Source: an uncultured Methanosarcinales archaeon
GTDB taxonomy: Archaea > Nanobdellota > Nanobdellia > Woesearchaeales > CAZYIM01
Reading direction: 5' to 3'
NCBI GenBank assembly: GCA_964647565.1
Contig: CAZYIM010000011.1
Span: forward strand, 1-64,000
DNA: 64,000 nt
The notes beneath the pieces are model-generated. The model was not told the origin of the DNA and did no database searches. It was given only the letters and a program-made list of their open reading frames with translations. Made by a program: the position numbers and the translations under genes. Positions within the stretch are counted from its first letter, which is position 1. Each line of letters starts with the position of its first letter. This document shows positions 14,903 through 45,713 of this stretch, piece by piece.

Positions 14903-15123
14903 AAATAAGCATTCATGGTCACTCCACTACGTTGCGTTCTCGGGTTCGCAAAGAGGCTTGCGAACCATGGCCAGGCGAGCCGACAATATGCATTCCCGAA
15001 GGGCTAGTTAAAGAGTGGGACTGAACCAAAGGCGAAAGCCGCACACGTCCTCAAGGGGCGTAACCCTTGGGAGAGTAGGACTTTCGAAGAAAGTCTGTCT
15101 GTGCCATGTATGAATGCTTATTT
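14903..15123 (+). ncRNA. Structured intergenic element A (candidate ncRNA or palindromic mobile unit)
   Basis: Perfect 14-bp terminal inverted repeat AAATAAGCATTCAT/ATGAATGCTTATTT; GC-rich nested hairpins (GGTTCGCAA/TTGCGAACC, GGC-GAAA-GCC, GGACTTTC-GAA-GAAAGTCT). G-U pairing favours the + strand. Identity unknown. Confidence 0.6.
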
Positions 15124-15183
15124 TCAGAAAAAAGACCTCAATAGTTTAGCAATCTTTTTATATATCATCCTCTTCCCTATCTC

Positions 15184-16371
15184 ATGTCTCGGGTGGCGTT
15201 GATTTATCATATGAATCTAGATCATTCTAGAATAGACGACAACCTATACTTAGACTTCATTGAAAAGGAGTTCATCCATTTCTTCCAATCCGCTTCACAA
15301 GTCAAAATAAACCTGTCTTCAATGGGCAAAGACTGGGAAACCATCAATAGAATCAATCCAAAAGCAATTGAATATGTAAGGGACAATAAGAACATCAAAG
15401 TACTTAACGGCTTCTTCTCACATATGATGCCGTCCATACATCCAAAGCTGGCATCAGCCAACATAGGTCTTGGCTCTTACTTCCATAAAAACCTTTTCAA
15501 GGACCAATTATCAGATTACGGATTTGTTCCTGAATTCGATGCCTACTCAGCATTCATCCCAATAGCAAGGAACATCTGGAAAGGCACCATCATCAGCAAC
15601 GGCATCCATTTATACGATTTCAGAAACAGTTTCAACCCAAAACTAAACAAGGAAGACAAGGACAAACCATTCCTAAAGATACTGGGCACTGACGGAAGAG
15701 GCTCAATGAACGCTCTTATCTCTGATGACAAGAACCTCAGAAACAGCTATCTGAACATGTACAGAGAACAAATATCACCCGAGCAGCACACAAAGACAAT
15801 AGAAAGCCTAGCAAAACAAAAAGGAACCCTGACCTTCTTGATGGATCTTGAGACAGTAATGCTCAACCAGGTGCATTTCGACAACAATGAAATCTCACCT
15901 CCAAGATATGATATCTGGAAAGCATACAACGACCAATTAACCAAGATAAACACAGAATTCGTACATCTAGACGATATAAACATCCCAGAACAGGAAGGAA
16001 CCCTGGTACTTCCCAGAGACAAGAAAAAATGGCTAACAAGAACAAATTCTTCAGACATCTATAACAAGATTGAAGACATTGATCTCGAAAAACTAACTCA
16101 ATACCAGTTCAGAACCCTATTATTGGCTGCAGGCTCTGATCCAATCTCTGCACTATACTCTGCAGGGGAAACCATGACAGCAGATTCCACCTTTGAAGGA
16201 AAGCCAGGAAAGATGATAATCAAACCCAATTACAATCGAATATTAAACGCTTACCGAATGCTTGCATCTATAGAACTCAAAGAGGATATTAACGAGCATA
16301 TGCAGGATTTCCCAGAATCATCCGAAAGAATTCTTAACCTTCTTCACAATATCTGTGAGAAGAAGTACTAA
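15184..16371 (+). CDS. Divergent GH57-like glycoside hydrolase
   Basis: GH57-like motifs in the expected order: YHMNL, FSH, GFVPE (nucleophile), MDLE (acid/base), AGSD. Confidence 0.55.
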   Translation: MSRVALIYHMNLDHSRIDDNLYLDFIEKEFIHFFQSASQVKINLSSMGKDWETINRINPKAIEYVRDNKNIKVLNGFFSHMMPSIHPKLASANIGLGSYFHKNLFKDQLSDYGFVPEFDAYSAFIPIARNIWKGTIISNGIHLYDFRNSFNPKLNKEDKDKPFLKILGTDGRGSMNALISDDKNLRNSYLNMYREQISPEQHTKTIESLAKQKGTLTFLMDLETVMLNQVHFDNNEISPPRYDIWKAYNDQLTKINTEFVHLDDINIPEQEGTLVLPRDKKKWLTRTNSSDIYNKIEDIDLEKLTQYQFRTLLLAAGSDPISALYSAGETMTADSTFEGKPGKMIIKPNYNRILNAYRMLASIELKEDINEHMQDFPESSERILNLLHNICEKKY

Positions 16372-16431
16372 CTACCCAAAACTTTAAATATAACCTAAAT
16401 AATGGTCATAATAACCTAAATAGCGGTTATA

Positions 16432-16950
16432 ATGACTCTACAAACTTTATTAAAAAACAACGAAAACGCAAGAAAGATCTTTGGAAAGCGTGAATTAAAA
16501 ATAATAGAAAAACAATTATTAGGAATAAACCTTTCTCAATCAGAAAAGAATCGTCTTTCCAGAGACATTCGACCCAAGCTTGAATTCATAAAAGAATGCG
16601 CCAGATTCGAAAACAGTTTCAAGTTAAAAAAAGGAGCAATAATCAAGGAAAAGATCAACACAGCAAAAAACATAATTCTACAAAGCAGATTCAAAGACCA
16701 AATAAAGAAAATTATCCTGTACGGCTCAACCATCCAAAATGATCTGACTTTTCGCTCTGACATCGATATAGCCATCTCATTAAAAAAAATCAGTCTAAAA
16801 GAAGCAACTAAAATAAGAATAGAATTATTAGGAATATTACCATCTAAAATCGATCTACAAATTCTCGAAACTCTTCCGGAAAAAATCAAGAAAGAGATAA
16901 AAACCAATAATAAGATCCTCTACACTAATGAGGATAAAAGAAAAGATTGA
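16432..16950 (+). CDS. Minimal nucleotidyltransferase (MNT) antitoxin with N-terminal extension
   Basis: LYGS...RSDIDIA and IDLQ motifs; overlaps the HEPN gene. Confidence 0.85.
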   Translation: MTLQTLLKNNENARKIFGKRELKIIEKQLLGINLSQSEKNRLSRDIRPKLEFIKECARFENSFKLKKGAIIKEKINTAKNIILQSRFKDQIKKIILYGSTIQNDLTFRSDIDIAISLKKISLKEATKIRIELLGILPSKIDLQILETLPEKIKKEIKTNNKILYTNEDKRKD

Positions 16951-17335
16951 TGAAATAAACAACTATCTTTCTGAACTTGAAGAAATCACACCATCAAATT
17001 TCAAAGAATACTGCCAGATTAAAAATAAAGCAGCATGTGAAAGATACCTTGAAAAAATCATAGAAGCAGTAATTGATTTAAGCTTCTTGATAATCAAGAA
17101 AAAAGAGTTCAAAATCCCAGAAAAGGACGCCCAGGCATTTGATATTCTGAAAGATGAAAAGATCATAACAGATCAACTTTCAAAAAAACTCAAACAAGCC
17201 AAAGGTATGAGAAATTTATTAGCCCACGAATATGGCTCCATCGACAACCAAATAGTTTTCGAATCAATAACAACAGAACTATCAAGAGACGTTAAAGAAT
17301 TCCTGAAAAGACTATCTCAACCAAAAACTTTATAA
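16928..17335 (+). CDS. HEPN (DUF86/HepT-like) ribonuclease toxin
   Basis: RNLLAHEY (RX4HXY) and ACER.L..IIEA..D motifs. Confidence 0.88.
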   Translation: MRIKEKIDEINNYLSELEEITPSNFKEYCQIKNKAACERYLEKIIEAVIDLSFLIIKKKEFKIPEKDAQAFDILKDEKIITDQLSKKLKQAKGMRNLLAHEYGSIDNQIVFESITTELSRDVKEFLKRLSQPKTL

Positions 17336-17362
17336 AGAACATGCGTTCTTTAAAAAGAACAG

Positions 17363-28571: not shown

Positions 28572-28607
28572 CAAAAACTTTAAATTCTCAACTCTCTTAA
28601 AACCAGT

Positions 28608-28917: not shown

Positions 28918-29007
28918 AAAAATAGCAACAACGGCGCAAACAAAATGTCTCATTTTGAGGTTTTTCATAGAAAAACCGTTTTGCCTGCCGTAGTTGTTGA
29001 TATTTTT
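28918..29007. repeat. Structured intergenic element C (short member of the fold-back family)
   Basis: AAATAGCAACA...TGTTGATATTT ends; ACGGC/GCCGT stem; CAAAATG-TCT-CATTTTG and GGTTTTTC-ATA-GAAAAACC hairpins. Confidence 0.6.
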
Positions 29008-32626: not shown

Positions 32627-32898
32627 GCCCAGACAACATCCCAAGGCCTGCACCCCCTGTTGAACCGCAGACCAACACGCTAGCGTTAGTAGGCTTCATC
32701 CTTTCATTTCTGATGGCACCTGTCGGAGTTGTCTTAAGCATAGTGGGATTGACTCAGATCAAGAAGGAACCATTGAGATACAAGGGAAAGGAATTGGCGA
32801 TTGCAGGAATAATAATCGGCGGAATTATAACATGCTTGCCGATCATATTCCTCATATTAGGCCTTGTCCTTGCAGGTCTCAGAGGAACAGTAGCATAA
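32623..32898 (+). CDS. DUF4190 small membrane protein
   Basis: Paralogue of the N-terminal half of the preceding gene. Confidence 0.72.
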   Translation: MSPDNIPRPAPPVEPQTNTLALVGFILSFLMAPVGVVLSIVGLTQIKKEPLRYKGKELAIAGIIIGGIITCLPIIFLILGLVLAGLRGTVA

Positions 32899-32930
32899 GT
32901 TTTATATACTCTTTTTCTTTTTTTATCTTC

Positions 32931-33332
32931 ATGCCCTTTAGAAGAATCACTATAATTAGGACCAGAAGGCCAAGAGAACCTAATATCAATGAGGAACTCC
33001 AATGGCTCGGAGGCACTTTAGGCCTCTTTAACTTAAGAGATAAGGACAAGAGCTGCTTTCGCATCTTTATCACTCTATTAAGAAATGTCAAGAATGAAAT
33101 GGGCCTTTCTTCAGACCAGATTGCAGAACAGCTCAACCTAACAAGAGGCACAGTGGTCCACCATCTTGATAAACTGATGAGCTCAGGCATTGTCCTTCAC
33201 GACAGGAATAGATATATCCTTTCTGTAGAAAACCTTGAACAGTTGGTCGATGGAGTAGAAACCAATGTAAAAAAGACCCTTAGCGAACTTAGGGATATCG
33301 CCAAGGATGTAGACGACAAGCTGAATCTATAG
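32931..33332 (+). CDS. Winged HTH transcriptional regulator
   Basis: LSSDQIAEQLNLTRGTVVHHLDKL..SGIV motif. Confidence 0.8.
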   Translation: MPFRRITIIRTRRPREPNINEELQWLGGTLGLFNLRDKDKSCFRIFITLLRNVKNEMGLSSDQIAEQLNLTRGTVVHHLDKLMSSGIVLHDRNRYILSVENLEQLVDGVETNVKKTLSELRDIAKDVDDKLNL

Positions 33333-34370: not shown

Positions 34371-35281
34371 CTGGCCATCACCTCTAAGGGTTGCTCCAGT
34401 CCCATATGTTCAATTATAACTTCAGCAATCCGTTTGGCAGCATTTATTTTCGCTTCAACTGTGTTGCCTGCAATGTGAGGAGTGACGATAGCATTTTCAA
34501 GCTGATATAGCTCTGTATATCCAGGCTCATTCTCAAATACATCTAGTATTGCTAATCTTATCCATTTGTTTTTCAGAGCCTTGAGCAAAGCCTGTTCCCT
34601 GACAACCTCTCCCCTTGCAGCATTTATCAGGATTGCATGAGGTTTCATCATCCTCAACTGTGCATCTTCAATCATGAACTTAGTCTCATCTGTTAGTTCT
34701 GGGTGAAGAGTCACAACATCACACATCAATACATCCTGCAATGTATGCCTCGCTTCAGCTACATAAGGATCATATGTTTTGACCTGCATTCCAAAGGCTT
34801 TGGCTCTACGTGCTACTCTCGTACCAACATTACCATATCCAATAATGCCCAAGGTTTTATATCTCAACTCTCGCCTAACATTGGCTTTTTTTATGTTCTT
34901 GAAATCCTGTGTGGCTTTGAGCAGCTTGTTAGTATAGAAAACATCATCTGTCACGATTAAAAGCATCCTCATGACATAGTCAGCAACTGCATCTGCATTC
35001 TCTCCTTTTGCAGTTAAGACCTTAATACCCTTAACTCTTGCAGTTTCGACGTCAATATGATCCATTCCAGTTGTGGCAGTTGCAATTATTTTCAGGTTCT
35101 TAGCCTTTTTTAGAAATAATTTATCCACTTTTGTTGCAGTCCTGATGATCAGGATATCAACTGTTCTTATCAGATCATCTGTCATCTCAGTGGTATCTAC
35201 AATATTGACCTCTCCTAATAAAGCAAGAGTTTTGGCTGCTATCTCGTGCACGGTCCTATCTATAACTATGCTCAGTCTCAT
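34367..35281 (-). CDS. D-isomer 2-hydroxyacid dehydrogenase (SerA-like, no ACT domain)
   Basis: G.DHID, GIIGYGNVG, INAARG, LDVFENEP and TPHIAG motifs. Confidence 0.85.
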   Translation of the reverse strand: MRLSIVIDRTVHEIAAKTLALLGEVNIVDTTEMTDDLIRTVDILIIRTATKVDKLFLKKAKNLKIIATATTGMDHIDVETARVKGIKVLTAKGENADAVADYVMRMLLIVTDDVFYTNKLLKATQDFKNIKKANVRRELRYKTLGIIGYGNVGTRVARRAKAFGMQVKTYDPYVAEARHTLQDVLMCDVVTLHPELTDETKFMIEDAQLRMMKPHAILINAARGEVVREQALLKALKNKWIRLAILDVFENEPGYTELYQLENAIVTPHIAGNTVEAKINAAKRIAEVIIEHMGLEQPLEVMAR

Positions 35282-35436
35282 TTCTTGTCTGTCATAGCCG
35301 ATTAGACCGGCAATCGCCTTTTTTGTTTTTTTGGAGTTTCATTGGTATTCACCTAATAAAAGTAGGAAAAATAACTATTAAAATATTTTGACATAAAATA
35401 GTAAATTATATAAAGAAAGACCAATTTAACTAAAAA

Positions 35437-36087
35437 ATGACTAATATTAATAAAGTAACCTGGGAATACATAGACAACAGGACCGAGATAAAGAAAACCC
35501 TGCTCAGCGGGCTGATAAACATCAGCGCCTTAGCCAGACAGATTGCAAAAGAAAAAAATCTACTATCAAACATAGACGCCATAATCAGCGCCATAAGGAG
35601 ATATGAAAGCAAGATAGACAAAAAAGAATACTACACTAAACTCTATAGCCTATTAAAGAAAGCCAAGATCTCGACCAAGACCAAGCTCGCATCCATCCTG
35701 ATCAAGAGAAACGACCAGACCGGAAAAAAGGCCAGCACCATCTACTCAAAAGTCGCCATGCATAGGGACAGCACTCTCAGGATCTTCGAGGTCACTAACT
35801 ACATCAAGATCATAATGGACGACCAATATTTCAAGGAGATCAAGAGTTTTTTTAGCGCCAACGAGATAGAAAATGAAGAAAAAAACCTCGGCGAATTGAC
35901 CATCAATTACAGGGACGATATCACAAGAATCCCTGGCTTGTTTGCCACACTCTCAAATGAGATGGCCATGAACGATATCAGCCTTATAGACTCAATGATC
36001 TGTCATTGGGAGCACATAATAATAGTCCAGGAGGAGAATATAGAAAAAGCCTTCAAAGTGATATTAAACCTGACAAAAAAAACATAA
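35437..36087 (+). CDS. Archaeal ACT-domain putative regulator
   Basis: LIN.SALAR N-terminal motif; C-terminal ACT-like IPGLFA.L...; divergent from the serA-like operon. Confidence 0.65.
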   Translation: MTNINKVTWEYIDNRTEIKKTLLSGLINISALARQIAKEKNLLSNIDAIISAIRRYESKIDKKEYYTKLYSLLKKAKISTKTKLASILIKRNDQTGKKASTIYSKVAMHRDSTLRIFEVTNYIKIIMDDQYFKEIKSFFSANEIENEEKNLGELTINYRDDITRIPGLFATLSNEMAMNDISLIDSMICHWEHIIIVQEENIEKAFKVILNLTKKT

Positions 36088-36100
36088 AAAAAGAAAAAAA

Positions 36101-37342
36101 TTATTCCTCTTCACCATCAAGAGGAACATCATAACCTGTGAACTCAGGACTTCCAAGCTCTCCAGCATCATTTCTTAAGGCATCAGCCTTGTCAGTCTTC
36201 TCCCAATTGAAATCAGGATCATTTCTGCCAAAGTGGCCAAATGCTGCAGTTTTTCTGAATATAGGCCTCCTCAAATCAAGATGCCTGATGATTTCAGCAG
36301 GTTTTAAGGGGAAATGCTTTCTGACCAATTTCTCAATCTCGTTTTCAGGTATCCTATTAGTACCGAAAGTGTGCACCAAAACTGAAACAGGTTTTGCCAC
36401 TCCAATTGCATAAGCAAGCTGTACCTCACATTTGTCAGCTAACTTTGCAGCAACAATATTCTTGGCAACATACCTGCACATATAGGATGCAGACCTGTCC
36501 ACCTTTGACGGATCCTTACCTGAAAATGCACCACCACCATGGCTTCCATGGCCGCCATAAGTGTCTACGATGATCTTCCTGCCTGTAACGCCTGCATCAG
36601 CAACAGGACCTCCAAGCACAAACTTGCCGGTAGCATTGATATAGAACTTGGTATTCTTATCAATCCACTTACCACAGATTGGTTTGATAACATGCTTTAA
36701 TATCTCTTTTTGAAGCGTCTTATGCTGCACTCTTGGTGAATGCTGGGCAGCAATGACCACTGCCTCAACCCTGACTGGCCTGCCATTTCGGTACTCAACT
36801 GTGACCTGGCTCTTGCCATCTGGTCTCAGAAATGGAAGTATCCTCTTTCTTCGGACCAAAGAGAGCTTATGCACCAGTTTATGTGCCAATACAATCGGCA
36901 ATGGCATAAGCTCAGGGGTCTCGTTACTTGCAAAACCAAACATGATTCCCTGGTCTCCTGCACCCTGCTCTTTGAAAAGGCCTGCACCGGCTGTAACTCC
37001 TTGAGAGATGTCAGGACTCTGCTCGCTAATTGCATTTAGCACACCACAACCATCACAATCAAAGCCAAAGTCTGGATCGTTATAACCTATGTGGTTTATT
37101 GTGTCCCTGACAACCTTTTGGATATCTATGTATGTCTTGGTTGTCATTTCACCAGCTACCACTACAAATCCTGTCTTGGTCAGGGTTTCGATAGCGACCC
37201 TACTTTCAGGATCCTCCCTGAGCGCTGCGTCTAGAATGGCGTCGCTGATCTGATCGCACATCTTATCTGGGTGACCTTCTGTCACGCTTTCTGAACTGAA
37301 AAAATATTTACCTTCTTTCTTCATTTGTTCCACCTCGTTCAT
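36101..37342 (-). CDS. metK: S-adenosylmethionine synthetase (bacterial/eukaryotic type)
   Basis: [37 protein letters not shown] and [16 protein letters not shown] motifs. Confidence 0.96.
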
Positions 37343-37362
37343 ATATTATAGAATATCATCTC

Positions 37363-37737
37363 CTAATAACCATGTAAAGAAGTATATGCCATAGATTTTT
37401 TCCTAAAACGCATCAACTGTGCTTGTCCTCGAGATTCCTGTTTTGATTGCTGCCTGTGTTCTGTTAATTTATCACTATATAGCTCGTACACTTGTCTGAT
37501 CTTTGCAGACTCAGGAGTGTTTATATTTGTCAGTCTCCAGGCCAGACGCAGAGTATCTGTAATATATAATAAATCAGCATACCAATTTTCAGATGCACAG
37601 CAATTCTGTGATATACGCTCGACAGTCTGGTCAATAGCCTCTACATTACCAAACAACTTCTCAAACTGATTTGCTTTAAATCCTCTTGAGTTCAATATAA
37701 TGGACTCAAACTCTTGCAAAATGTTGTCAAAACCCAT
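37363..37737 (-). CDS. Hypothetical protein
   Basis: Open frame with a TATA-like box and GGAAGG upstream of ATG 37737; no motif recognised. Confidence 0.5.
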   Translation of the reverse strand: MGFDNILQEFESIILNSRGFKANQFEKLFGNVEAIDQTVERISQNCCASENWYADLLYITDTLRLAWRLTNINTPESAKIRQVYELYSDKLTEHRQQSKQESRGQAQLMRFRKKSMAYTSLHGY

Positions 37738-37810
37738 AGAAAAACATCCTTCCGGCTTATATATAAACCTTCCTGACAAAAATATTCCTATAAGAATTAA
37801 CAGAAAAAAC

Positions 37811-38017
37811 TTATTTCTTTTCAACCACAATAAACTTGTTGTCTTTTGCACCAACAGGTCTTAGATTCTTGACAGTATACTCTTTAACGCCTCGGGATTC
37901 TGCCCATTTATTGGCAGCCTCTTCTGTCTTGAAGCTCTTGGCTCTTTTGGAGCGGTTCCTTCTGGGAAGCTCAAACTTCCATCTGAAAACTCTAGTATGT
38001 TTATGTGTCATAGTCAT
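37811..38017 (-). CDS. Small basic hypothetical protein
   Basis: 68 aa, Lys/Arg-rich, F.TEEAA..WA motif; TTTAAA box about 20 nt upstream. Confidence 0.6.
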   Translation of the reverse strand: MTMTHKHTRVFRWKFELPRRNRSKRAKSFKTEEAANKWAESRGVKEYTVKNLRPVGAKDNKFIVVEKK

Positions 38018-38113
38018 GAGGTTTTAGGATTGGTTTAAAAAGTTTGTGAAATATCTTAGATATTTTTCAACCTCAGAAATCACAGATTTATGCGGGGATT
38101 GTGGAAATAATGC

Positions 38114-38818
38114 CTAAGACTTATCATAGGGTTTGATCAAACCACGAATAAAGAGAGGGATATCCTTTTTCAGGTTGAGGGATGAGTCAGGATCTTCTGT
38201 CCATTTGACAGGAATTTGGGTTATCTTGTAGCCTTGATCCTGAGATCTAATCAGAAGCTCAGTGTCAAAGAAAAAATTACCATGCCTGATCTTGGGCACA
38301 ACATAATCCCTGACATCTTTAGTTACGCCCTTAAAGCCGCATTGAGGATCCTTAATCATGCTGTTATAGAACAATCTGAATAAAAACCTATATCCTCTTG
38401 AAATAAACTCTCTCTTGGCACTCCTTTGCACCTCTGAACTGGGCAGATATCTAGAGCCTATGACTACATCTGCACTAGTCTCTAACTCCCAAATCATCCT
38501 GGGAAATGCCTCAAGATCCGTCGAGAGATCACTGTCCATGAAGGAAAAGAAGTCATAGTCATCAAACATAGCATCTGTCCATGCCCTCATGACAGCATTA
38601 CCTTTACCCCTATGCGCAGCCAATACATAATGGATGCCAGGATAATCCTCTGCAAGCCTCTTGGCTATATCAGGAGTATGGTCCCTGGAATTATTGTCAG
38701 ATATCACGATATCAGCAGCGATACCTGGCTTCTGGAGAAAATCATATGCCTCAAGCACACTTTGTTCCAGACAGAATTCCTCATTTAGTACAGGAAAAAC
38801 CAAGAGGGTTTTGCTCAT
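38114..38818 (-). CDS. Dolichyl-phosphate hexosyltransferase-like GT2
   Basis: PVLNEE, DNNS.D.T, GKG.AV, FMDSDLS, GSRY, DPQCGFK and FDTELL motifs. Confidence 0.88.
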   Translation of the reverse strand: MSKTLLVFPVLNEEFCLEQSVLEAYDFLQKPGIAADIVISDNNSRDHTPDIAKRLAEDYPGIHYVLAAHRGKGNAVMRAWTDAMFDDYDFFSFMDSDLSTDLEAFPRMIWELETSADVVIGSRYLPSSEVQRSAKREFISRGYRFLFRLFYNSMIKDPQCGFKGVTKDVRDYVVPKIRHGNFFFDTELLIRSQDQGYKITQIPVKWTEDPDSSLNLKKDIPLFIRGLIKPYDKS

Positions 38819-38926
38819 ATGTAAAAGAAAGCTCATCAGATATTTAATTCTTCCTGCTTAATAATGGTATAATCATAATAAATTCATATAAGAATATTTA
38901 TATAATAGCAATTATTCCCATTTATC

Positions 38927-39475
38927 ATGCAGTATGAACTATCAGATATCAAACATATCAGAAAAAAGCTAAACCTGACCCAAAAAGAGCTGGCCAAGAA
39001 GTCAGGAGTCTCCCAGTCACTGATTGCCAAGATAGAGAGTCACAAGATGGATCCCTCATTCTCAAACACCAAAAAGATATTCGAAACCCTTGACCTGCTG
39101 CAGCAAAAGTCATCATTAACAGCAAAAGAGATGATGCAGAACAAGATAATATCCTGTGAAGCTGACTCCACTATCAAGAATATCATCAAGAGGATGAAGA
39201 GATATGAGATCAGCCAGCTGCCGGTCATCGACCAAGACAAGGTCGTAGGAGTTATATCAGAGAAGATCATCCTGAAACATATCTTTGAAAAAGATGCTGC
39301 CAAAATGAAAGTCAGGGATGTCATGGAAGAAGCACCACCAATCGTATCTACGAATGCATCCCAGGAAATAGTATCCTATCTGCTCAGGCATTTCCAGATG
39401 GTCATTGTCAAGGAAAAGGGCGGATTAAAGGGTATAGTTACAAGAGCAGATATTCTCAGAAATGTCTACAAATAA
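38927..39475 (+). CDS. XRE-HTH plus CBS-pair regulator
   Basis: LTQKELAKKSGVSQSLIAKIE..DP HTH; ISQLPV and GIVTRAD CBS motifs. Confidence 0.9.
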   Translation: MQYELSDIKHIRKKLNLTQKELAKKSGVSQSLIAKIESHKMDPSFSNTKKIFETLDLLQQKSSLTAKEMMQNKIISCEADSTIKNIIKRMKRYEISQLPVIDQDKVVGVISEKIILKHIFEKDAAKMKVRDVMEEAPPIVSTNASQEIVSYLLRHFQMVIVKEKGGLKGIVTRADILRNVYK

Positions 39476-40136
39476 ACCAATAATCAAAGCAGCAATCTTT
39501 GACCTTGACGGCACTATAATCGATTCTGAACATTTAAACTATAAGAAAAACAGGATAGTCTTCAAGGAAATATGTAATCTCGATATTTCAAAAGAAGAAT
39601 ACATCCAAAGATGGCTGTTAGATCAATCCTTCACCAGGGGTGTTATCAGGGATTACAATCTCAACATAAAACCAGCGCAGTTGTTGGAGAAGAAATTAGA
39701 AATCAACAGGAAACTGGTTGATGATGAGCTAGAATTGATGCCTTATGCAGAAGAGACCCTTAAAGCTTTTTTCGAAGCAGGATATAAAATCGGCATGACA
39801 ACATCCAACAACTGGGGCAATCTTCCGATGATATTCGAAAAATTCCCTATCCAAAAATACTTCCATAAAATAATCACCTATGAAGATGTCAAGAATCCAA
39901 AACCCCACCCTGAACCTTATCAGAAGACTGCCAAAGCCTTGGGAGAGCATCCAAAAAATTGTGTAGTTTTCGAGGATAATCCTGCAGGAGTAAGATCTGC
40001 AAAAGAAGCAGGAATAGGCTTTATTGTCGGAGTGCCCTGCGAATATACCAAAAACATGGAATTCTCAGAAGCCGATCTGGTTATAAGCAACCTAAGAATG
40101 ATCCATGAATATCCGCATCTGATACCCTTAAAGTAG
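39462..40136 (+). CDS. HAD-family phosphatase (beta-PGM-like)
   Basis: FDLDGT, KPHPEPY and FEDN..G motifs. Confidence 0.9.
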   Translation: MSTNKPIIKAAIFDLDGTIIDSEHLNYKKNRIVFKEICNLDISKEEYIQRWLLDQSFTRGVIRDYNLNIKPAQLLEKKLEINRKLVDDELELMPYAEETLKAFFEAGYKIGMTTSNNWGNLPMIFEKFPIQKYFHKIITYEDVKNPKPHPEPYQKTAKALGEHPKNCVVFEDNPAGVRSAKEAGIGFIVGVPCEYTKNMEFSEADLVISNLRMIHEYPHLIPLK

Positions 40137-40835
40137 ACTTCTGACCTTGCCAAAGTCATACACCTTCTCACCGACTACAAAGACCTTGAAACCAGAGATA
40201 TCAGTGAGAAAGGGGCTTAATAATTTCTCCTTTAACACATCTGTTCCCTCTGTCACCAGGTTCAACGAAGGCATGACTATCAGATTCTTGTTCTTCCACT
40301 TACCCTTTAGAAAACATTTGTATTTCTCAGACCTAATCTCGTCCCTTATGCTTACAGCAGGATGCTCATGACCTATGATCACGGTCTTGGCCATATTGAA
40401 GTCCAGATCAGAAGGTATCTTATGACCGTGGCATACATAGTATCCTTTCTCATAATAATGATCGACTATTTCAATATCCCTTTTCTTGGCAATCGGCCCT
40501 AATATAGTGTCGTGGTTGCCCTTGATCAATATCAGTTTACCATAGCCCTGAAGAAAATCAATCAATTTTAGGGTGTTTCTCCATTCCTCGTCAGAGATAG
40601 TGCCAAATTCGTGCTTGATATCCCCATTCAGAACAATTTTTTCTGGTTTGACCTTCTCAAGAATAGGCTTAAGCCGCTCAATCAGCTCCTTATACTGGAA
40701 TCTCGGAACCAAAACACCTGTTTTATTGAGCTCTTCTTCATATCCTATATGAGAGTCGCCAACAATCAGAATATTTATTTTATTAAGAAATAAGCCCAGA
40801 TCCACAATCTCAATTCCTTTAAGAATCTCTATCAT
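40128..40835 (-). CDS. Archaeal metallophosphoesterase
   Basis: DSHIG, NGDIKH, GNHD, HGH and GHEHP motifs. Confidence 0.9.
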   Translation of the reverse strand: MIEILKGIEIVDLGLFLNKINILIVGDSHIGYEEELNKTGVLVPRFQYKELIERLKPILEKVKPEKIVLNGDIKHEFGTISDEEWRNTLKLIDFLQGYGKLILIKGNHDTILGPIAKKRDIEIVDHYYEKGYYVCHGHKIPSDLDFNMAKTVIIGHEHPAVSIRDEIRSEKYKCFLKGKWKNKNLIVMPSLNLVTEGTDVLKEKLLSPFLTDISGFKVFVVGEKVYDFGKVRSLL

Positions 40836-41338
40836 GTCTTTAATGGATTGAAATCAAGTTCTTTAAGTTTTTCCTTTATGAACTCAATTGTTCTTGCATT
40901 ATCCTGTTCATGCATGATCTGGCCGCATTCAGGACACTTGAAGTTGAATTCAAATGCATTGTCAAAAGCCATCCTTGCACAAGCATTCTTGCACATGTAG
41001 AAGATATTTGCAGCCTCTCTCATCAGGCGCTCGTTGAGTTTGGATATTTTGTTTTGCCGGATCTTTTCGGCGAGAATTGGAACCATGCCTTCGTTAAAAT
41101 CCCAATAACAGATGTACCATCCCTTGATCTTGTCTTTTTTTCTCAGGAAAGTGACGATGTTGTGCTCCAGGAGCCTATATAATAGGTTCCTTGTCTCATG
41201 AATCTCATAGTCAAGCTCTTCTGCTACAATAAATTCAGAGATTTTTTTCTTGCCTCTTAGATATAAAACTATAGGAATTCCTTCTGGACCTACCAACTCA
41301 GTGACCACTTGTTCGATTATCTGTTTTTTGACTCTCAT
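40832..41338 (-). CDS. tfe: Transcription factor E alpha subunit
   Basis: wHTH (R..LY.L....V...R.KD...GW....W) and zinc ribbon C...C...F..A....F.CPECG; DN motif. Confidence 0.85.
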   Translation of the reverse strand: MRVKKQIIEQVVTELVGPEGIPIVLYLRGKKKISEFIVAEELDYEIHETRNLLYRLLEHNIVTFLRKKDKIKGWYICYWDFNEGMVPILAEKIRQNKISKLNERLMREAANIFYMCKNACARMAFDNAFEFNFKCPECGQIMHEQDNARTIEFIKEKLKELDFNPLKT

Positions 41339-41714
41339 TTTGCACGCACCATGATTTTTAAAGATCTACCAGATCTCAACCGCACTGAGAGTGGAGTTAT
41401 ATTTCTGAAAAAAACAGGTCCAAACAAGCTATGTTTAAGCTTTTGAGCTAATTGTCCGATATGCTTATAGCTATTTTCCATTTTTATCATACTTTTAACA
41501 AGAAATACCCCCAAAGTATCTCTTAACAAAAACATACTATGAGATTTATCATTTATAAAGTTTTTGCTTTTTAGTGGTATTTCCCGACTATATTTTGCCA
41601 TATTTGTATATATTTCTATGGCGTCACTCTCACGTAGTATAATCGGCATATTATATTTATAGAAGTACTCATATTTAAATGTTTCGATTTTTATCACTTA
41701 TCAGAAGTAACAAA

Positions 41715-42590
41715 TTAACAAGGCTTGTTCATTCTCCCCATAATATCGCAGAGACTTGCATCCAAGGGCCCTGTATTCTCCATAGAAATCGTAGCTGCCA
41801 TCGACGCAAAATCGCCCCACAACAAAGGATCCTTGAAGGTCTGTTTGGCCATCAGGAAAGCAGCCATATAGGTATCTCCAGAACCAGTAGGATCTACAAT
41901 CTCCTTTGGCTTAAAAGGCTTGATGATATATTTTTCACCATGATGATAAAAGGTTGAGCCTTTAGAATTTTTTGTAATAATTAGATTCTCAAGACCTGTA
42001 TCTAAAAACGGTTTTGCAGCCTTGTCAAGCGTATCAGAACCTCCAATGAACTTAAGCTCGTCTTCATCTAGGAAGACATAGTTGAAAAAAGGCAGCACAT
42101 TGATGACATTTTCAGGATTCTTCCAGACAATCCTGCCATCCTCAACATAACGGATCATGCCCTGGGCAGCTAACACTAATGACGATGGAGCGATCTCCCC
42201 AACACTCTTGATGAGCTCATACGAGAAATGATCATGCAAAAGAGGGGCGAAAATAATATAAGGATGTCTGCTAATATCATCTTCAAGAATTTCCTCAAGC
42301 TCGATATTTTGAAAATATGGAGTGCAGCTGTCTTCCCTTTTGCCATCATCAAGATATTCTATCTGATATTTCAGGGTTTTTTGCGCCCGTATATGAAAAA
42401 GATATTCACATTCCAGCTGGTCAATCCAATCCTCAGGTTCCTCACCATAAGAAGCAATCAAAGTTACCTTTGCACCCATAGCTGTAAGTGCATTCCCAGC
42501 ATAATATAAAACTCCACCCATTCCAGAATAAGTCTCACCACCAATCTTCAGTTCATCTCTCGAAACAGGACCAATTATTGCTGCTTTCAT
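41715..42590 (-). CDS. PfkB-family carbohydrate kinase
   Basis: MGG..Y N-terminal motif; DPTGSGD signature. Confidence 0.85.
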   Translation of the reverse strand: MKAAIIGPVSRDELKIGGETYSGMGGVLYYAGNALTAMGAKVTLIASYGEEPEDWIDQLECEYLFHIRAQKTLKYQIEYLDDGKREDSCTPYFQNIELEEILEDDISRHPYIIFAPLLHDHFSYELIKSVGEIAPSSLVLAAQGMIRYVEDGRIVWKNPENVINVLPFFNYVFLDEDELKFIGGSDTLDKAAKPFLDTGLENLIITKNSKGSTFYHHGEKYIIKPFKPKEIVDPTGSGDTYMAAFLMAKQTFKDPLLWGDFASMAATISMENTGPLDASLCDIMGRMNKPC

Positions 42591-42638
42591 AGCAAAACAC
42601 CCAAAACCCTAATTTTAGAACATACTACTATATAAAAT

Positions 42639-43631
42639 TTACTTATCAATCCTAGGATAAACACCAGGATTCATAAAAACCTGGGAAGATTTCGCAGCAA
42701 CACCCTTCTCAGCCTTCAATATCTCCTTAGTGGTCATCACGGCCCTGCCAACTGCAATCAGCTCGCCTTTCAGGCTCATCAGAGCAACAGGATCATCGAC
42801 CTGAATCTCTGTATTCAGCTTAGAGACTCCAGGAGCCTTAAGAGTAGCGCCGTGGCAGAGAGCATCAACAGTGGTATCAAGCACCCATATCTTCTTGAGA
42901 TGAGCGACTGCAGATTCAACAGGCATGATGATCTTCTTCAAAAACTTTGCATCATTCTCCTCAGTATAATAATAAAAAGCATCTGTAAGATCCTGTAATG
43001 TAGTTAGGAGGCTAGCCTCATTAAAAGGACCTACCTTAGTCCTTCTAAGCTCTGCCATATGGGCTCCGCAGCCAAGCTCCTGACCAATATCATGGACCAA
43101 CTTTCGAATATATGTGCCAGCCTGGCAGCCGACCAAAAAAAGTACATCCTGATCCTGGCGTTCCAGCACTTTAATATAGTATATCTTACGAAAGCGCCAG
43201 GCCCTCTTTACAGAACTTTTGATAGGCGGAAGCTGCTTAATCTTACCAACAAATGCCTTCAAAACAGCATCAAGAGCCTTTTTATCCACCTCTTTATGAA
43301 GATGCATAAGGCATACATACTCCTTGCCCGCATTAAGCAGGGAATGGACGATACGGGTGGCTTTACCAAGAGCAACAATCAGGCATCCAGTGACCTTAGG
43401 ATCAAGAGTGCCGGAGTGACCTGTCTTGTTCAGGCCAAGTATCTTCTTGGTGTATGCAGATGTCTGGTGAGAAGTAGGGCCTGCAGGTTTATCAATATTA
43501 ACAACACCATAGTCAAGCAGCTCATCAATCTCCATATCTTCAGGAGGTTTTCCAAATTTGGAGCTGGTCTCAGCCGACTTCTTGACCACGATCTGATCCT
43601 CTTCTCGCTCAAACGGTAAAAGTGTTTCCAT
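42639..43631 (-). CDS. cbf5: Cbf5 (archaeal TruB-family) pseudouridine synthase
   Basis: DKPAGPTSH, GHSGTLDPKVTG, KEYVC and GTYIRKL motifs; PUA domain. Confidence 0.93.
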   Translation of the reverse strand: METLLPFEREEDQIVVKKSAETSSKFGKPPEDMEIDELLDYGVVNIDKPAGPTSHQTSAYTKKILGLNKTGHSGTLDPKVTGCLIVALGKATRIVHSLLNAGKEYVCLMHLHKEVDKKALDAVLKAFVGKIKQLPPIKSSVKRAWRFRKIYYIKVLERQDQDVLFLVGCQAGTYIRKLVHDIGQELGCGAHMAELRRTKVGPFNEASLLTTLQDLTDAFYYYTEENDAKFLKKIIMPVESAVAHLKKIWVLDTTVDALCHGATLKAPGVSKLNTEIQVDDPVALMSLKGELIAVGRAVMTTKEILKAEKGVAAKSSQVFMNPGVYPRIDK

Positions 43632-43656
43632 GCAAGACAAGAACTAGGTAGGTTTT

Positions 43657-44265
43657 TTATGTTTTGCGCTTCATCATACTTATACTCAGCTGATGATAGA
43701 CAGCCAGATAGTGGGGATAGATCTCCTGATGGAAAGCAGGAATATAGCCACAGATGTCCCCTCCAAGAATCTTTTTCTGTTCACCAACACCCCGGATAAA
43801 ATCTAAGACCTCGACCTGAGTTTTGGTTGGCGAAAAGAAAAAATGACTGCCCATTTCACAGTAACCAGCATGATTGGAAACACATTCAAGCTCCTTGATA
43901 ACATCAAGATCAGTGCTTATATAGACATACTTTGTGGGTATTTCAGACATCATCTCCTCAATACTATCGCTTTTAGGATGTATGATCTTCTTTTGGAAAT
44001 CATCAGAACCCCAGGTCGGAGCATCAACCCCATAGAAAAGAGCGCCTTTCACATTTGGCGGATGAATTAAAAAAGGCACAAATGTAGCACAATCCCATTC
44101 AGCACCACTATCACAATCACAATGCGCATCTATATGTATATAGGTGAAATCCTGTTCAATACCCTCGACAAAATTGTCTGTATACTGATGGTTTGTATTC
44201 GGACCATTAACAACAATAAAGTTTCCATCAGGTTTATTATCATCATCAAATTGCTTCAACTGCAC
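43657..44265 (-). CDS. Short arginase/ureohydrolase-like protein
   Basis: NH, HIDAHCD and YISTDLDV metal-binding motifs. Confidence 0.6.
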   Translation of the reverse strand: MQLKQFDDDNKPDGNFIVVNGPNTNHQYTDNFVEGIEQDFTYIHIDAHCDCDSGAEWDCATFVPFLIHPPNVKGALFYGVDAPTWGSDDFQKKIIHPKSDSIEEMMSEIPTKYVYISTDLDVIKELECVSNHAGYCEMGSHFFFSPTKTQVEVLDFIRGVGEQKKILGGDICGYIPAFHQEIYPHYLAVYHQLSISMMKRKT

Positions 44266-44306
44266 ACTAGAATTAGAAAAACCCTCAACCAGGTCTTCAA
44301 TACCAC

Positions 44307-44795
44307 TTACTTTTTTAAAGTATCCTGTAGGGATTTTCTCATGTAGAATGGCCTATCACCTTGATATTGGTTTTCGAGTCTGAAATTCGCGTTGTGTATG
44401 ATCGCATCACTCCAGAATTTGAAATCTTTCACCTCTTCATCCCACTGCACCCGTATTTCACCGCCGTCAACATCGCTTATTGTGCAGCTCTTGTTGTTCT
44501 CGTCTTTCTCAAGCTGCTCTACTCTGGCACCCCACCAATGGTAGGAGAATATCTGAGTATATTGCTTACCTTCACCCTTCCCAGTCAGTATGTATAGATA
44601 GTTGAATTGAGAATTGTCCCTCTGGACATAGATATCGATGCTGCCAGTCTGAATCTGATCTGTAATATCATCCTTGTTAAAATCCATTCTTTGTTCAAGA
44701 GGATACTTTTTTTGCTGATAGCTCTGCTGAGCTGATAATCCCGCCCCAAATAGAATGGTGAACAAAGTTGGAAGCAGGAAATTTCTGAGTTTCAT
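44307..44795 (-). CDS. Secreted hypothetical protein
   Basis: Signal-peptide-like N-terminus; DFNKD.I.D Ca-binding-like motif. Confidence 0.6.
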   Translation of the reverse strand: MKLRNFLLPTLFTILFGAGLSAQQSYQQKKYPLEQRMDFNKDDITDQIQTGSIDIYVQRDNSQFNYLYILTGKGEGKQYTQIFSYHWWGARVEQLEKDENNKSCTISDVDGGEIRVQWDEEVKDFKFWSDAIIHNANFRLENQYQGDRPFYMRKSLQDTLKK

Positions 44796-44911
44796 TCTCT
44801 AAGCGTAGAAATCTGGCTATTTATAAAAAGATTGTGCTAAAATTGTTAGAAGTAGCTATTAGAGTATAATAAACCATTTAAATGTCAAAGTCTCAGACTT
44901 AGGGAACAGTA

Positions 44912-45556
44912 ATGTCTAGGGAAGGGCTAGAAGGGTTAACTGACGGGGGGGACGCTAGTTTTAAAGCCATGATTGAAGTGAAGCGTAAATGCGTCAAAAC
45001 TTCTTCTTTATTGATCAAACAAAGGAATAAATATAACTCTATGCGAAAGAAACATCATATAAATGCAGATATAGGCATCATCTACAATAACGGTAAAAAA
45101 CAGTTCCAGACAGTGGATTTTGTGCTCAAGATCGAAAGATTCAACAAACCACTTGTCCTGGACACCTTTGAAGAGGCTTATGAACGAGCCAAGGGCAAAC
45201 CAAAAAAAAGCGAAGAGCAAATCTGGGACTCACTAACCTATATAGGCAACGGACATTTTCAGGACTTCCTTATGGATTTCATCAAGGGACGAGACAATTA
45301 TTTCAACAGGAATCTATGCCCTGATATGAGTCTAGAATACAAGTCTGGAGTCATCGGCAATATACGAGGTCATTTCCTTGAGATATACTGCAAGAATGTG
45401 TTCCAAAAAGAGCTTCCGAATGCTAAAATATTCGTAGGAAACCACATTGACAACAGCGTATCCAAGACAGACGTCGACATCCTGATCGCCAATGTCTCCA
45501 GAGATCAATTCTACAACTGTCTCAACCACTCCAAATACTTCAAGAAGATGGTATAG
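44912..45556 (+). CDS. Hypothetical protein (weak nuclease-like motifs)
   Basis: 214-aa ORF with its own TATA-like box; G.FLE and DVDILI motifs. Confidence 0.55.
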   Translation: MSREGLEGLTDGGDASFKAMIEVKRKCVKTSSLLIKQRNKYNSMRKKHHINADIGIIYNNGKKQFQTVDFVLKIERFNKPLVLDTFEEAYERAKGKPKKSEEQIWDSLTYIGNGHFQDFLMDFIKGRDNYFNRNLCPDMSLEYKSGVIGNIRGHFLEIYCKNVFQKELPNAKIFVGNHIDNSVSKTDVDILIANVSRDQFYNCLNHSKYFKKMV

Positions 45557-45597
45557 GGATAGAGTTAGTTCTAAGAAAAGTAAATAGACTCCATTAG

Positions 45598-45713
45598 AAA
45601 TAGCAACACCGATGGCACAGACGCACTCCTCGGAGGAGTGCTACTCCGCTGACCAGAACACTATACCCCGCGTATAGTAACCTGGTAAGCTACGTCTGGC
45701 CATGTTGCTATTT
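45598..45713 (-). ncRNA. Structured intergenic element B (relative of element A)
   Basis: Perfect 11-bp inverted repeat AAATAGCAACA/TGTTGCTATTT. The minus strand shares CATGGCCAGRC...GAGTA-[8-bp triloop stem]-GTCTGTGCCAT with element A. Confidence 0.6.

What the first reader, a model, noticed from the sequence alone, without database searches (positions are those of the whole stretch)
14903..45713. Family of three dispersed fold-back elements with a covarying triloop hairpin
Seen: A (14903-15123, +) reads CATGGCCAGGC...GAGTA-GGACTTTC-GAA-GAAAGTCT-GTCTGTGCCAT. B (45598-45713, -) reads CATGGCCAGAC...GAGTA-GCACTCCT-CCG-AGGAGTGC-GTCTGTGCCAT. The 8-bp/3-nt-loop hairpin differs in sequence but keeps its pairing, and the closing stem has the same bulged T. 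C (28918-29007) has the same layout (ACGGC...GA-GGTTTTTC-ATA-GAAAAACC...GCCGT). All three are bounded by inverted repeats starting AAATA(A)GCA, and B and C share AAATAGCAACA exactly. Interiors vary, with totals of about 221, 116 and 90 nt. They lie in divergent, convergent and tandem gaps, and no target duplication or transposase was seen. Inference: an unrecognised structured ncRNA class, or a single-stranded-DNA hairpin element (REP/MITE-like or attC-like) under selection for structure. GTAG before a palindrome recalls REP sequences.
Basis: partly seen in the sequence, partly recalled or inferred. Interest (0 to 1): 0.85.

Follow-up and report, generated by a model that had tools for sequence, protein, structure and literature searches.

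The report
Folded hairpin repeats from archaeal MITEs
The three elements are real copies of a folded, non-coding repeat found about 30 times in this small archaeal genome, and its three-armed core also forms the centre of miniature transposons, so it is a new variant of a known kind of selfish repeat, not yet shown to be a new RNA class.

Summary
A and B belong to one family whose core is P1 (GGCCAGRCG/CGTCTG-T-GCC), P2, GAGTAG and P3, enclosed in a long outer stem. A covariance model from 15 other copies finds 31 copies in this 2.68-Mb genome, all intergenic, and copies in 20 of 150 other genomes of the same order (Woesearchaeota-type DPANN archaea). Stems covary clearly (score 0.45-0.53 against 0.15-0.17 in shuffles). 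No Rfam family matches.

C is not found by the model. It is one of three copies of a sister subfamily with the same layout and outer stem.

The same core sits inside true MITEs:
- in a relative (G048), 4 of 4 copies have 17-nt terminal inverted repeats and 9-bp target duplications;
- in this genome, at least 7 MITE copies carry the core in circularly permuted order.

The window's copies have no such terminal repeats or duplications. They are diverged (median nearest-neighbour identity 77%) and fold better on one strand (27 of 30). They end in T-runs on both strands.

Best reading: terminal-repeat-less hairpin derivatives of an IS5/IS903-type MITE family, kept for their fold, perhaps as bidirectional terminators. 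Whether they are transcribed is untested. This scan had already noted the family elsewhere in this genome.

The parts
14903..15123 (+). Element A, a whole hairpin-form copy of 221 nt. It has an enlarged P2 domain and an extra 5' module.
   Evidence: Read. Fold -84.9 kcal/mol, z -5.0. Model R1 matches 15043-15119 at 27 bits. It is 93% identical to C2:59792-60009, which has unrelated flanks.
14903..14916 (+). A: 5' arm of the outer stem (AAATAAGCATTCAT). It pairs with 15110-15123.
   Evidence: The same arm type occurs in 8 copies in the genome.
14919..14965 (+). A: extra module of about 47 nt (TCACTCC...GGTTCGCAAAGAGGCTTGCGAAC) between the outer stem and the core.
   Evidence: The same module is present in C2:59792, C2:77740, C3:100687 and C8:61634. 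In C28:28877 it lies on the other side of the core, in inverted orientation, with a 9-nt duplication.
14969..14977 (+). A: P1 5' strand (GGCCAGGCG).
14979..15072 (+). A: enlarged P2 domain.
   Evidence: The same domain occurs in the two C2 copies.
15073..15077 (+). A: junction GAGTA between P2 and P3.
   Evidence: These columns are invariant or nearly so in alignments A1 and A2.
15078..15096 (+). A: P3 hairpin (GGACTTTC-GAA-GAAAGTCT).
   Evidence: In A1, 6 of the 7 P3 pairs show changes on both sides.
15097..15105 (+). A: P1 3' strand (GTCTG-T-GCC, with a bulged T).
15106..15123 (+). A: 3' arm of the outer stem, ending in a T-run.
45598..45713 (-). Element B, a whole hairpin-form copy of 116 nt with a long P2.
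   Evidence: Read. Fold -59.9 kcal/mol, z -7.5. R1 scores it at 52.5 bits, E 1.5e-14. A DNA contig of run X1 covers 45402-45920 with B intact.
45693..45701 (-). B: P1 5' strand (GGCCAGACG).
   Evidence: GGCCAGACGTAGCTTACC resembles GGCCAGGCGTAGCTTATC in the MITE at C35:3439-3571.
45648..45690 (-). B: long P2 hairpin.
   Evidence: Eight further copies have this P2 type.
45642..45647 (-). B: junction GGAGTA.
45623..45641 (-). B: P3 hairpin (GCACTCCT-CCG-AGGAGTGC).
45614..45622 (-). B: P1 3' strand (GTCTG-T-GCC).
28918..29007 (+). Element C, a sister subfamily. Layout: outer stem AAATAGCAACA; P1 CGGC-GCAAAC/GTTTTGC-CT-GCCG; P2 28942-28956; GA; P3 28959-28977.
   Evidence: Fold z -5.5. R1 does not match it. 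Two siblings have a covarying P2 (AAAATG/GGGAGG/GGAAGG). It starts 5 nt after a stop codon and ends 77 nt before the next start codon.

Best explanation
A and B, together with 29 further copies in this genome, are hairpin-form copies of a non-coding repeat family of Woesearchaeota-type (DPANN) archaea. C belongs to a sister subfamily.

The conserved part is a three-way junction:
- P1 carries a fixed G.U pair and a bulged U.
- P2 is variable in size.
- P3 is stacked directly on P1.
- The junctions read G-A and GAGUA.

This junction is the structured centre of IS5/IS903-type miniature transposons (MITEs), which a DDE transposase moves in trans and which leave 9-bp target duplications. In this genome the MITE form carries the same modules in circularly permuted order: P3 is open and runs into the terminal repeats, and the outer stem is capped.

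The window's copies are the other permutation. Their outer stem is open, P3 is capped, and they have no terminal repeats and no target duplication. They are mostly old and diverged but keep their pairing through compensatory changes on one strand, so the single-stranded fold is under selection.

Inferred, not shown (about 35% on its own): the hairpins persist because they act as bidirectional transcription stops or insulators. Each is a hairpin with T-runs on both strands, lying just after stop codons and 55-110 nt upstream of start codons.

How the hairpin form spreads without terminal repeats is not known.
For: Family and fold:
- 31 R1 matches in the own genome.
- In alignment A1 (15 copies), 94.4% of cells pair against 79.6% in shuffles. 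9 of 18 pairs change on both sides. The covariation score is 0.452 against 0.167 (0 of 500 shuffles reach it) and 0.04-0.15 when partners are slid.
- In alignment A2 (15 copies from other genomes) the score is 0.49-0.53 against 0.15, and three P1 pairs have 5-8 double changes each.

Strand-specific selection:
- The element's strand folds better than its reverse complement in 27 of 30 copies (mean 6.0 kcal/mol, Wilcoxon p 9e-6).
- G.U outnumbers A.C by 20 to 5 in A1 and 15 to 3 in A2.
- One G.U pair is kept in 13 of 15 rows of both alignments.

Link to MITEs:
- In G048, 4 of 4 near-identical copies have the TIR GGCTTCATCCAAAAAAT and 9-bp target duplications.
- The own genome has an 890-bp IS with a DDE_Tnp_1 gene and a 9-bp duplication.
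- The own genome also has MITEs at C40:2679 and C8:38019 (16-nt TIR; 9-bp duplications GTAGAATGA and GAAAACCTG) and at C25, C32, C23, C35 and C28. Their interiors read P1-3' strand, capped outer stem, P1-5' strand, P2, GAGTAG.
- Half-profiles built from hairpin copies hit C40 and C8 in the reversed order.
- The cap of the C40 MITE reads TTTTC-loop-GAAAA, which matches the GAAAA...TTTTC ends of the hairpin copies.

No TIR or target duplication in the hairpin form:
- None was found in 33 of 34 copies; one marginal hit came up at C5.
- 60 flanks of 100 nt from 30 copies share nothing.

Age: the median nearest-neighbour identity of hairpin copies is 77%. MITE pairs are 87-96% identical, or 89-100% by BLAST.

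Position and T-runs:
- All 31 copies are intergenic.
- T-runs of 4 or more occur at the 3' end in 25 of 30 copies on the element's strand and 22 of 30 on the opposite strand, against a 14% background.
- Distances to downstream start codons mostly fall between 55 and 110 nt.
Against: - No RNA data exist, so transcription, 3' ends and any terminator activity are untested.
- The position between a stop codon and a promoter is also the only place where an insertion is tolerated in a compact genome, so it does not prove a function.
- 10 of 31 copies lie in divergent gaps, where there is no gene end to terminate.
- A has a 93% identical twin at an unrelated locus with no TIR or target duplication. 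The hairpin form therefore seems to have spread by itself, which the transposase model does not explain.
- The element's ends vary while its centre is conserved. This is the opposite of an ordinary MITE.
- The likeness between the MITE form and the hairpin form is modular: boxes of 9-18 nt in the same cyclic order. BLAST does not see it, and the half-profile hits are weak (E 0.01-0.7).
- The DDE transposase family is present in only 6 of 10 genomes with the element, against 10 of 31 without it.
- No abutted terminal repeats, which would show a circle or a dimer junction, were found in the genome or in metagenome contigs.
Confidence: 0.55

Rival explanations
1. The hairpins are genes or gene copies of a small structured RNA of about 80-220 nt that acts in trans or binds a protein. 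Its conserved three-way junction would be the functional site, and MITEs merely carry it around.
For: - The junction nucleotides, one G.U pair and a bulged U are conserved across many families of the order, while all stems vary with compensation.
- The strand asymmetry is strong.
- P2 is of variable size, as in many RNA families.
- No known family matches.
Against: - There is no conserved promoter, because the flanks of 30 copies share nothing.
- The copies lie in either orientation relative to their neighbours, about 10 the same way and 7 opposite in tandem gaps.
- The distribution is patchy, 20 of 150 genomes of the order, with 1-25 copies each. That fits a selfish element better than a needed RNA.
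- There is no synteny.
- No RNA run holds the stretch.
Confidence: 0.2
2. The fold acts as single-stranded DNA during movement. The element passes through a circular or dimer intermediate that can be opened either at the terminal repeats (giving the MITE form, by the DDE transposase) or at the loop of the outer stem (giving the hairpin form, by an unknown enzyme). That would explain the two circular permutations.
For: - Both permutations of the same modules occur in one genome.
- The hairpin ends GAAAA...TTTTC match the capped loop TTTTC-N4-GAAAA of the C40 MITE.
- Hairpin copies have no target duplication yet include a 93% identical pair at unrelated loci.
- G.T pairs are tolerated in DNA hairpins too, so the strand asymmetry fits.
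Against: - No junction of abutted terminal repeats was found in the genome or in two scans of metagenome contigs.
- No HUH, TnpB or other candidate enzyme was found: Y1_Tnp gave no real hit and Cas12f1-like_TNB gave none, in a genome that is 87% complete.
- IS5-family elements are not known to use circles (recalled knowledge).
- The contigs of 4 DNA runs show no empty site or alternative joint at B or C.
Confidence: 0.15
3. The elements are REP-like elements moved by a RAYT (HUH) transposase, or attC-like sites of an integron.
For: GTAG precedes a palindrome, and the hairpin has an extrahelical base.
Against: - There is no real Y1/HUH transposase hit in the genome.
- The palindrome after GTAG varies freely in sequence, unlike REP sequences within one genome.
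- The copies are dispersed, lie in both orientations and are not in cassette arrays.
- No integrase lies beside them in this window. One relative's copy is next to a tyrosine recombinase gene, which is 1 of 10 loci examined.
Confidence: 0.03

Closest known systems
MITEs derived from IS5-family (IS903-group) insertion sequences
   Same: - Small, non-coding, multi-copy and intergenic.
- The same three-way-junction core lies inside elements with 16-17-nt terminal inverted repeats and 9-bp target duplications (G048; own genome at C40, C8, C25 and C35).
- An 890-bp DDE_Tnp_1 IS with a 9-bp duplication is present in the genome.
- A high MITE density in a Woesearchaeota genome is in print (PMC11602168, passages read).
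   Different: - The window's copies have no terminal repeats matching any IS and no target duplication.
- Their ends vary while the centre is conserved.
- The fold is selected on one strand.
- The modules occur in two circular permutations.
Bacterial structured intergenic repeats (REP/BIME, ERIC, Correia/NEMIS, RUP, BOX). Named from recall.
   Same: Hairpin-forming repeats between genes, in either orientation. They are often co-transcribed and are known to affect termination and mRNA stability (established knowledge).
   Different: - The host is an archaeon.
- The core is a three-way junction rather than a simple hairpin.
- There is no RAYT.
- The core is conserved across many families of an order.
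5' (Alu) domain of SRP RNA
   Same: The topology is the same: a closing helix, a short hairpin, a 4-6-nt purine-rich linker containing GUA, and a second hairpin that abuts the closing helix. The genome's own SRP RNA reads h2-h3-UGUAAC-h4.
   Different: - No sequence likeness, and no SRP model matches the elements at E up to 10.
- The two loops vary freely, so the loop-loop contact of the Alu fold is not kept.
- This is a resemblance only.
Integron attC sites
   Same: An imperfect hairpin read on one strand, with an extrahelical base, a variable tip and conserved pairing rather than conserved sequence.
   Different: There are no cassette arrays, no common orientation and no integron integrase beside them.

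Membership tests
IS5/IS903-type MITE | Terminal inverted repeats like those of a parent IS | tested here: not met
   For A, B, C and the other hairpin copies the ends read (G)AAAAT...ATTTT(C). They do not resemble GGTTGTGTAGAAAA, GGCTTTGTAGAAAA or GGCTATTATGAAACCC. The feature is met by the related MITE-form copies.
IS5/IS903-type MITE | Target-site duplication of 8-10 bp (9 bp for the IS903 group) | tested here: not met
   None was found in 33 of 34 hairpin copies; one marginal hit came up at C5. No shorter duplication is seen at the outermost pair. The feature is met in 4 of 4 G048 copies, in the C40 and C8 MITEs and in the IS itself.
IS5/IS903-type MITE | Small, non-coding, multi-copy, with a partner transposase in the genome | tested here: met
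   There are 31 copies of 52-285 nt, all intergenic. One DDE_Tnp_1 gene lies at C3:36884-37369.
IS5/IS903-type MITE | Homology of the interior to bona fide MITEs | tested here: met
   The core is matched by R1 inside the G048 MITEs. The same boxes occur in permuted order in the own-genome MITEs. The likeness is modular and the profile hits are weak.
REP element / RAYT system | A RAYT (Y1 HUH transposase) gene in the genome | tested here: not met
   PF01797 gives one 17-bit hit, below the cut-off, in a membrane-like ORF. The genome is 87% complete.
REP element / RAYT system | GTAG followed by a palindrome of conserved sequence within the genome | tested here: not met
   GAGTAG is conserved, but the palindrome after it (P3) differs in most copies with compensating changes.
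Integron attC | Arrays of cassettes in one orientation next to an integron integrase | tested here: not met
   The copies are dispersed over 20 or more contigs and lie in both orientations. R-box motifs were not tested.
Any Rfam 15 family | A match at or near the family's gathering score | tested here: not met
   No matches at gathering score in the window. Only chance-level matches appear around A and B and in 11 relatives' loci.
5S rRNA / SRP RNA | A match to the family model; single essential copy | tested here: not met
   The genome has its own 5S rRNA at C16:2897-3012 (79.5 bits) and its own SRP RNA at C4:72228-72550 (94.4 bits). The elements match neither model.
Intrinsic-type transcription terminator (archaeal oligo-T signal) | A T-run at the 3' end of a transcript, with termination shown | not testable with these tools
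   T-runs of 4 or more are present at both ends (25 of 30 and 22 of 30, background 14%). No RNA 3'-end data exist.

The most novel reading that the evidence does not exclude
The three-way junction is the working part of a hairpin element that moves by itself, without terminal repeats or target duplication, through a circular single-stranded DNA or RNA intermediate. That intermediate can re-enter the genome opened at either of two arms. IS903-type MITEs would have merely captured it. This would be a new mode of mobility in archaea, and its conserved junction could be a recognition site or a catalytic RNA.
Probability: 0.15. Interest if true: 0.85.

Novelty: new variant of a known kind. Interest (0 to 1): 0.55.

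Why it matters
DPANN archaea have tiny, compact genomes, yet this one holds about 30 copies of a carefully maintained fold in its short intergenic spacers. Relatives carry the same fold inside active miniature transposons.

Three features are unusual:
- The conserved part is the centre and not the ends, the reverse of ordinary MITEs.
- Selection acts on one strand only.
- The same modules occur in two circular permutations.

Together these make the family a good test case for two questions: how non-coding mobile DNA is built and tamed in archaea, and whether such hairpins serve as transcription stops in organisms whose termination signals are poorly known. If the hairpin form proves mobile by itself, it would point to an undescribed transposition route.

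In practice, a covariance model of this family would remove a recurrent 'novel ncRNA' false lead from scans of Woesearchaeota genomes.

Tried and rejected
- **Known RNA families.** Rfam gave no match at gathering score in the window. E-value scans gave only chance matches. No tRNA or tmRNA was found in the window.
- **5S rRNA.** I considered it because of GAGAGUAGG. The genome has a normal 5S rRNA elsewhere.
- **SRP Alu-domain origin.** The topology is the same but there is no sequence match.
- **K-turn or loop-E reading of the GA/GAGUA junction.** I considered this from memory. The strand polarity does not fit a standard k-turn. Not testable here.
- **Conserved neighbouring gene.** I found none among 19 flanking ORFs at 10 relatives' loci.
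- **HUH, TnpB and DDE transposases.**. The DDE family is only weakly associated with the element across 41 genomes.
- **Larger elements bounded by the hairpins' outer-stem motifs.** I found none with a gene inside. The candidate at C46:9102-9197 is a chance pair.
- **Expression.** No RNA holder is listed for the stretch.
- **Empty sites.** The contigs of 4 DNA runs laid on 28000-47999 show no joint across B or C. Cover is about 4x, so this says little.
- **Circle or dimer junctions.** None in the genome and none in two scans of metagenome contigs.
- **Genome contigs pattern scan.** I gave only 80 of the 121 loci to the model, and 20 of those matched. Three matches in Clostridia MAGs cover only the P2-junction part and were not pursued.
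- **Literature.** No papers for 'Woesearchaeota' + 'miniature inverted' or for 'DPANN' + 'noncoding RNA' + 'covariation'. One irrelevant paper came up for 'circularly permuted' + 'MITE' + 'transposase'.
- **Covariance model of the permuted form.** I started on this but did not build it.

Full report

Yes. The sequences read as quoted. A (14903-15123, +) and B (45598-45713, -) share three features:
- the 5' box GGCCAG[G/A]CG;
- the junction GAGTA followed by an 8-bp hairpin with a 3-nt loop;
- the 3' box GTCTG-T-GCC.

The 11-mer GTCTGTGCCAT occurs exactly only at these two places in the window. AAATAGCAACA occurs exactly at C and at both ends of B. All three elements fold much better than dinucleotide shuffles: z = -5.0, -7.5 and -5.5, with 0 of 200 shuffles as good in each case. 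A lies in a divergent gap, B in a convergent gap and C in a tandem gap.

**2. It is a large family.**

BLAST of B against the window's own genome gave further copies. That genome is 2.68 Mb in 86 contigs, 38% G+C and 87% complete.

The minimal core is 52 nt. It reads GGCCAGGCG, A, a 3-bp hairpin (P2), GAGTA, a 7-10-bp hairpin (P3) and CGTCTG-T-GCC.

I aligned 15 short copies, none of them from the window (alignment A1). On the structure P1/P2/P3:
- 94.4% of cells pair, against 79.6% in shuffles.
- 9 of 18 pairs change on both sides.
- The covariation score is 0.452 against 0.167 in shuffles (0 of 500 reach it) and 0.04-0.15 when the partners are slid.

A covariance model built from A1 (R1) finds 31 places in the genome at E up to 1. 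These include B (52.5 bits) and the core of A (27 bits), but not C.

C has two siblings, at C32:14202-14293 and C43:14487-14547. They share its layout, its outer stem and a covarying P2 (AAAATG/GGGAGG/GGAAGG), but have a different P1 and no GAGTAG. C is therefore a sister subfamily.

No Rfam family matches the window, the surroundings of A and B or 11 relatives' loci.

**3. Where else it occurs.**

- R1 matches 9 of 40 other genomes of the same order, each from a different family, at E up to 0.01.
- In a wider draw at E up to 1e-4 it matches 20 of 150 other genomes, with 1-25 copies each. One of these, G131, is unpublished. Without it the count is 19 of 149.
- In a draw of 150 from the phylum, 7 genomes matched, and all 7 are labelled as the same order. 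The output does not say how many genomes of other orders were in that draw.
- Named records with strong matches are mostly 'Candidatus Woesearchaeota archaeon' MAGs. One MAG has 9 loci. A few are labelled Nanoarchaeota, Methanosarcinales or Omnitrophota. I gave 80 of the 121 loci to the model, and 20 matched.

Order members have genomes of 0.6-2.1 Mb, and the own genome has an archaeal SRP RNA. The host is therefore a DPANN-type archaeon.

Fifteen copies from other genomes (alignment A2) again covary. The score is 0.49-0.53 against 0.15, and three P1 pairs have 5-8 double changes each. GGCG-A, GAGTAG and CCGTC stay nearly invariant.

Flanking genes at 10 relatives' loci are unrelated to each other.

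**4. One strand is selected.**

The element's strand folds better than its reverse complement in 27 of 30 copies (mean 6.0 kcal/mol, Wilcoxon p 9e-6). G.U pairs outnumber A.C by 20 to 5 in A1 and 15 to 3 in A2. One G.U pair next to the junction is kept in 13 of 15 rows of both alignments. This fits RNA or single-stranded DNA of that strand. It does not fit a symmetric duplex signal.

**5. The link to transposons.**

*In a relative.* In G048, four near-identical copies define a 183-bp element. It has the terminal repeat GGCTTCATCCAAAAAAT, and 4 of 4 copies have 9-bp target duplications. The hairpin core lies at its centre. In G080, the 16 copies are the centre of a larger repeat that has its own inverted ends.

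*In the own genome.* There is one DDE_Tnp_1 gene, inside an 890-bp IS with a 9-bp duplication. There are also MITEs:
- two with the 16-nt repeat GGCTATTATGAAACCC and 9-bp duplications (C40:2679, C8:38019);
- five with GGCTTTGTAGAAAA (C25, C32, C23, C35, C28).

The interiors of these MITEs hold the family's modules in circularly permuted order:
1. terminal repeat;
2. P3 3' arm;
3. CGTCTGTGCC;
4. a capped version of the outer stem;
5. GGCCAGACG;
6. P2;
7. TAGTAG or GAGTAG;
8. P3 5' arm;
9. terminal repeat.

RNAfold gives the same three-way junction, with the terminal repeats as the open arm. Profiles of the 5' and 3' halves of the hairpin copies hit C40 and C8 in reversed order, at E 0.01-0.7 each. 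The cap of the C40 MITE reads TTTTC-loop-GAAAA, which matches the GAAAA...TTTTC ends of the hairpin copies.

The likeness is modular. BLAST between the two forms finds nothing.

**6. The window's copies are not MITEs in the strict sense.**

- No terminal repeat plus 8-10-bp duplication was found in 33 of 34 hairpin copies; there was one marginal hit.
- No shorter duplication is seen.
- The 100-nt flanks of 30 copies share nothing.
- The copies are diverged. The median nearest-neighbour identity is 77%, while MITE pairs are 87-96% identical.
- A nonetheless has a 93% identical twin at C2:59792-60009 with unrelated flanks. So the hairpin form itself seems to have been copied, by a route I cannot name.
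- No HUH transposase and no TnpB were found.
- No abutted terminal repeats were found in the genome or in metagenome contigs.

**7. Position and possible role.**

All 31 copies are intergenic: 18 in tandem gaps, 10 in divergent gaps and 3 in convergent gaps. There is no clear orientation bias. They typically lie 3-60 nt after a stop codon and 55-110 nt before a start codon, which is upstream of TATA-like boxes.

T-runs of 4 or more close the hairpin on the element's strand in 25 of 30 copies and on the opposite strand in 22 of 30. The background is 14%.

This fits a bidirectional terminator or insulator. It fits equally well the only place where insertions survive in a compact genome.

No RNA run holds the stretch. 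The contigs of 4 DNA runs show B intact and no empty site, at a depth of about 4x.

**8. Verdict.**

The finding is real and is much larger than three copies. The best reading is a structured hairpin repeat that is the conserved centre of Woesearchaeota IS5/IS903-type MITEs. In the window it is present as old copies without terminal repeats, kept for a single-stranded fold.

It is a new variant of a known kind, not a demonstrated new RNA class.

The open and interesting points are:
- the centre is conserved while the ends vary;
- selection acts on one strand;
- the modules occur in two circular permutations;
- hairpins lacking terminal repeats and target duplications appear to have been copied.

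MITE abundance in a Woesearchaeota genome is in print (PMC11602168, passages read). A 2026 survey of archaeal IS elements mentions MITEs only in passing (PMC13343696, passages read). My searches found no description of this fold. Supplements of those papers were not read and may list such MITEs.

Noticed in passing
G000:C3:36514-37403 (locus L042 1131-2020): An 890-bp IS with a DDE_Tnp_1 gene (318-326 aa), 17-nt terminal repeats GGTTGTGTAGAAAAAGT and the 9-bp target duplication GTTTTTTAT. It is the only such gene found in the genome. Its ends do not carry the family's core.
   Followed up: partly
G000:C40:2679-2868 and G000:C8:38019-38208: Two MITE copies, 96% identical, with perfect 16-nt terminal repeats GGCTATTATGAAACCC and 9-bp target duplications (GTAGAATGA, GAAAACCTG). 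Their interior is the circularly permuted form of the A/B core.
   Followed up: partly
window 14919-14965; also G000:C2:59792, C2:77740, C3:100687, C8:61634, C28:28877: A module of about 47 nt (with the hairpin GGTTCGCAAAGAGGCTTGCGAACC) sits between the outer stem and the core in five copies. In C28 it lies on the other side in inverted orientation with a 9-nt duplication (CCGTGAATG/CCATGAATG). This could be either site-specific insertion or inversion of the core between CCATGG sites.
   Followed up: partly
Alignment A2, columns 23, 32 and 42 (relatives' copies with the long P2): In the P2 type GNC-RGGGG-loop-CYCCC-NNN-GGGR-U-GNC, the first purine of the 5' G-run tracks the last base of the 3' G-run (G/G, A/A, U/C), and both track the pyrimidine strand between them. 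This could be a base triple, two alternative hairpins, or only lineage signal. The events are few.
   Followed up: partly
G000:C19:8305-8417 with 8433-8513; G020:C59:7749-7829 with 7833-7923: Two hairpin copies lie head-to-head only 3-15 nt apart, in two different genomes. This hints at a preferred landing place next to an existing copy.
   Followed up: no
window 36004-37337: In the laid DNA contigs this stretch has 5-8 times the depth of its surroundings, several joints (for example 36468 to 36930 at depth about 270) and many loose ends. It is probably a conserved or repeated gene shared with other organisms in the samples.
   Followed up: no
Loci L059, L067, L128 (Clostridia MAGs): The string GGCGAGCCGYAGGCGAGTAGG, which is the P1 end, short P2 and junction, occurs at the tip of an unrelated hairpin upstream of a terminator-like stem in bacterial MAGs. 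It could be chance or a shared small RNA module.
   Followed up: no
Locus L082 250-299 (record CP070655.1): A tRNA gene starts about 50 nt from a copy of the element in a 1.14-Mb genome labelled Omnitrophota. The label looks doubtful for a genome carrying this archaeal repeat.
   Followed up: no
G000:C4:43874-44140 and C6:61936-62067: Two copies carry two extra hairpins between GAGTAG and the P1 3' strand, and C4 has further hairpins after the core. The family accepts insertions in every arm.
   Followed up: no
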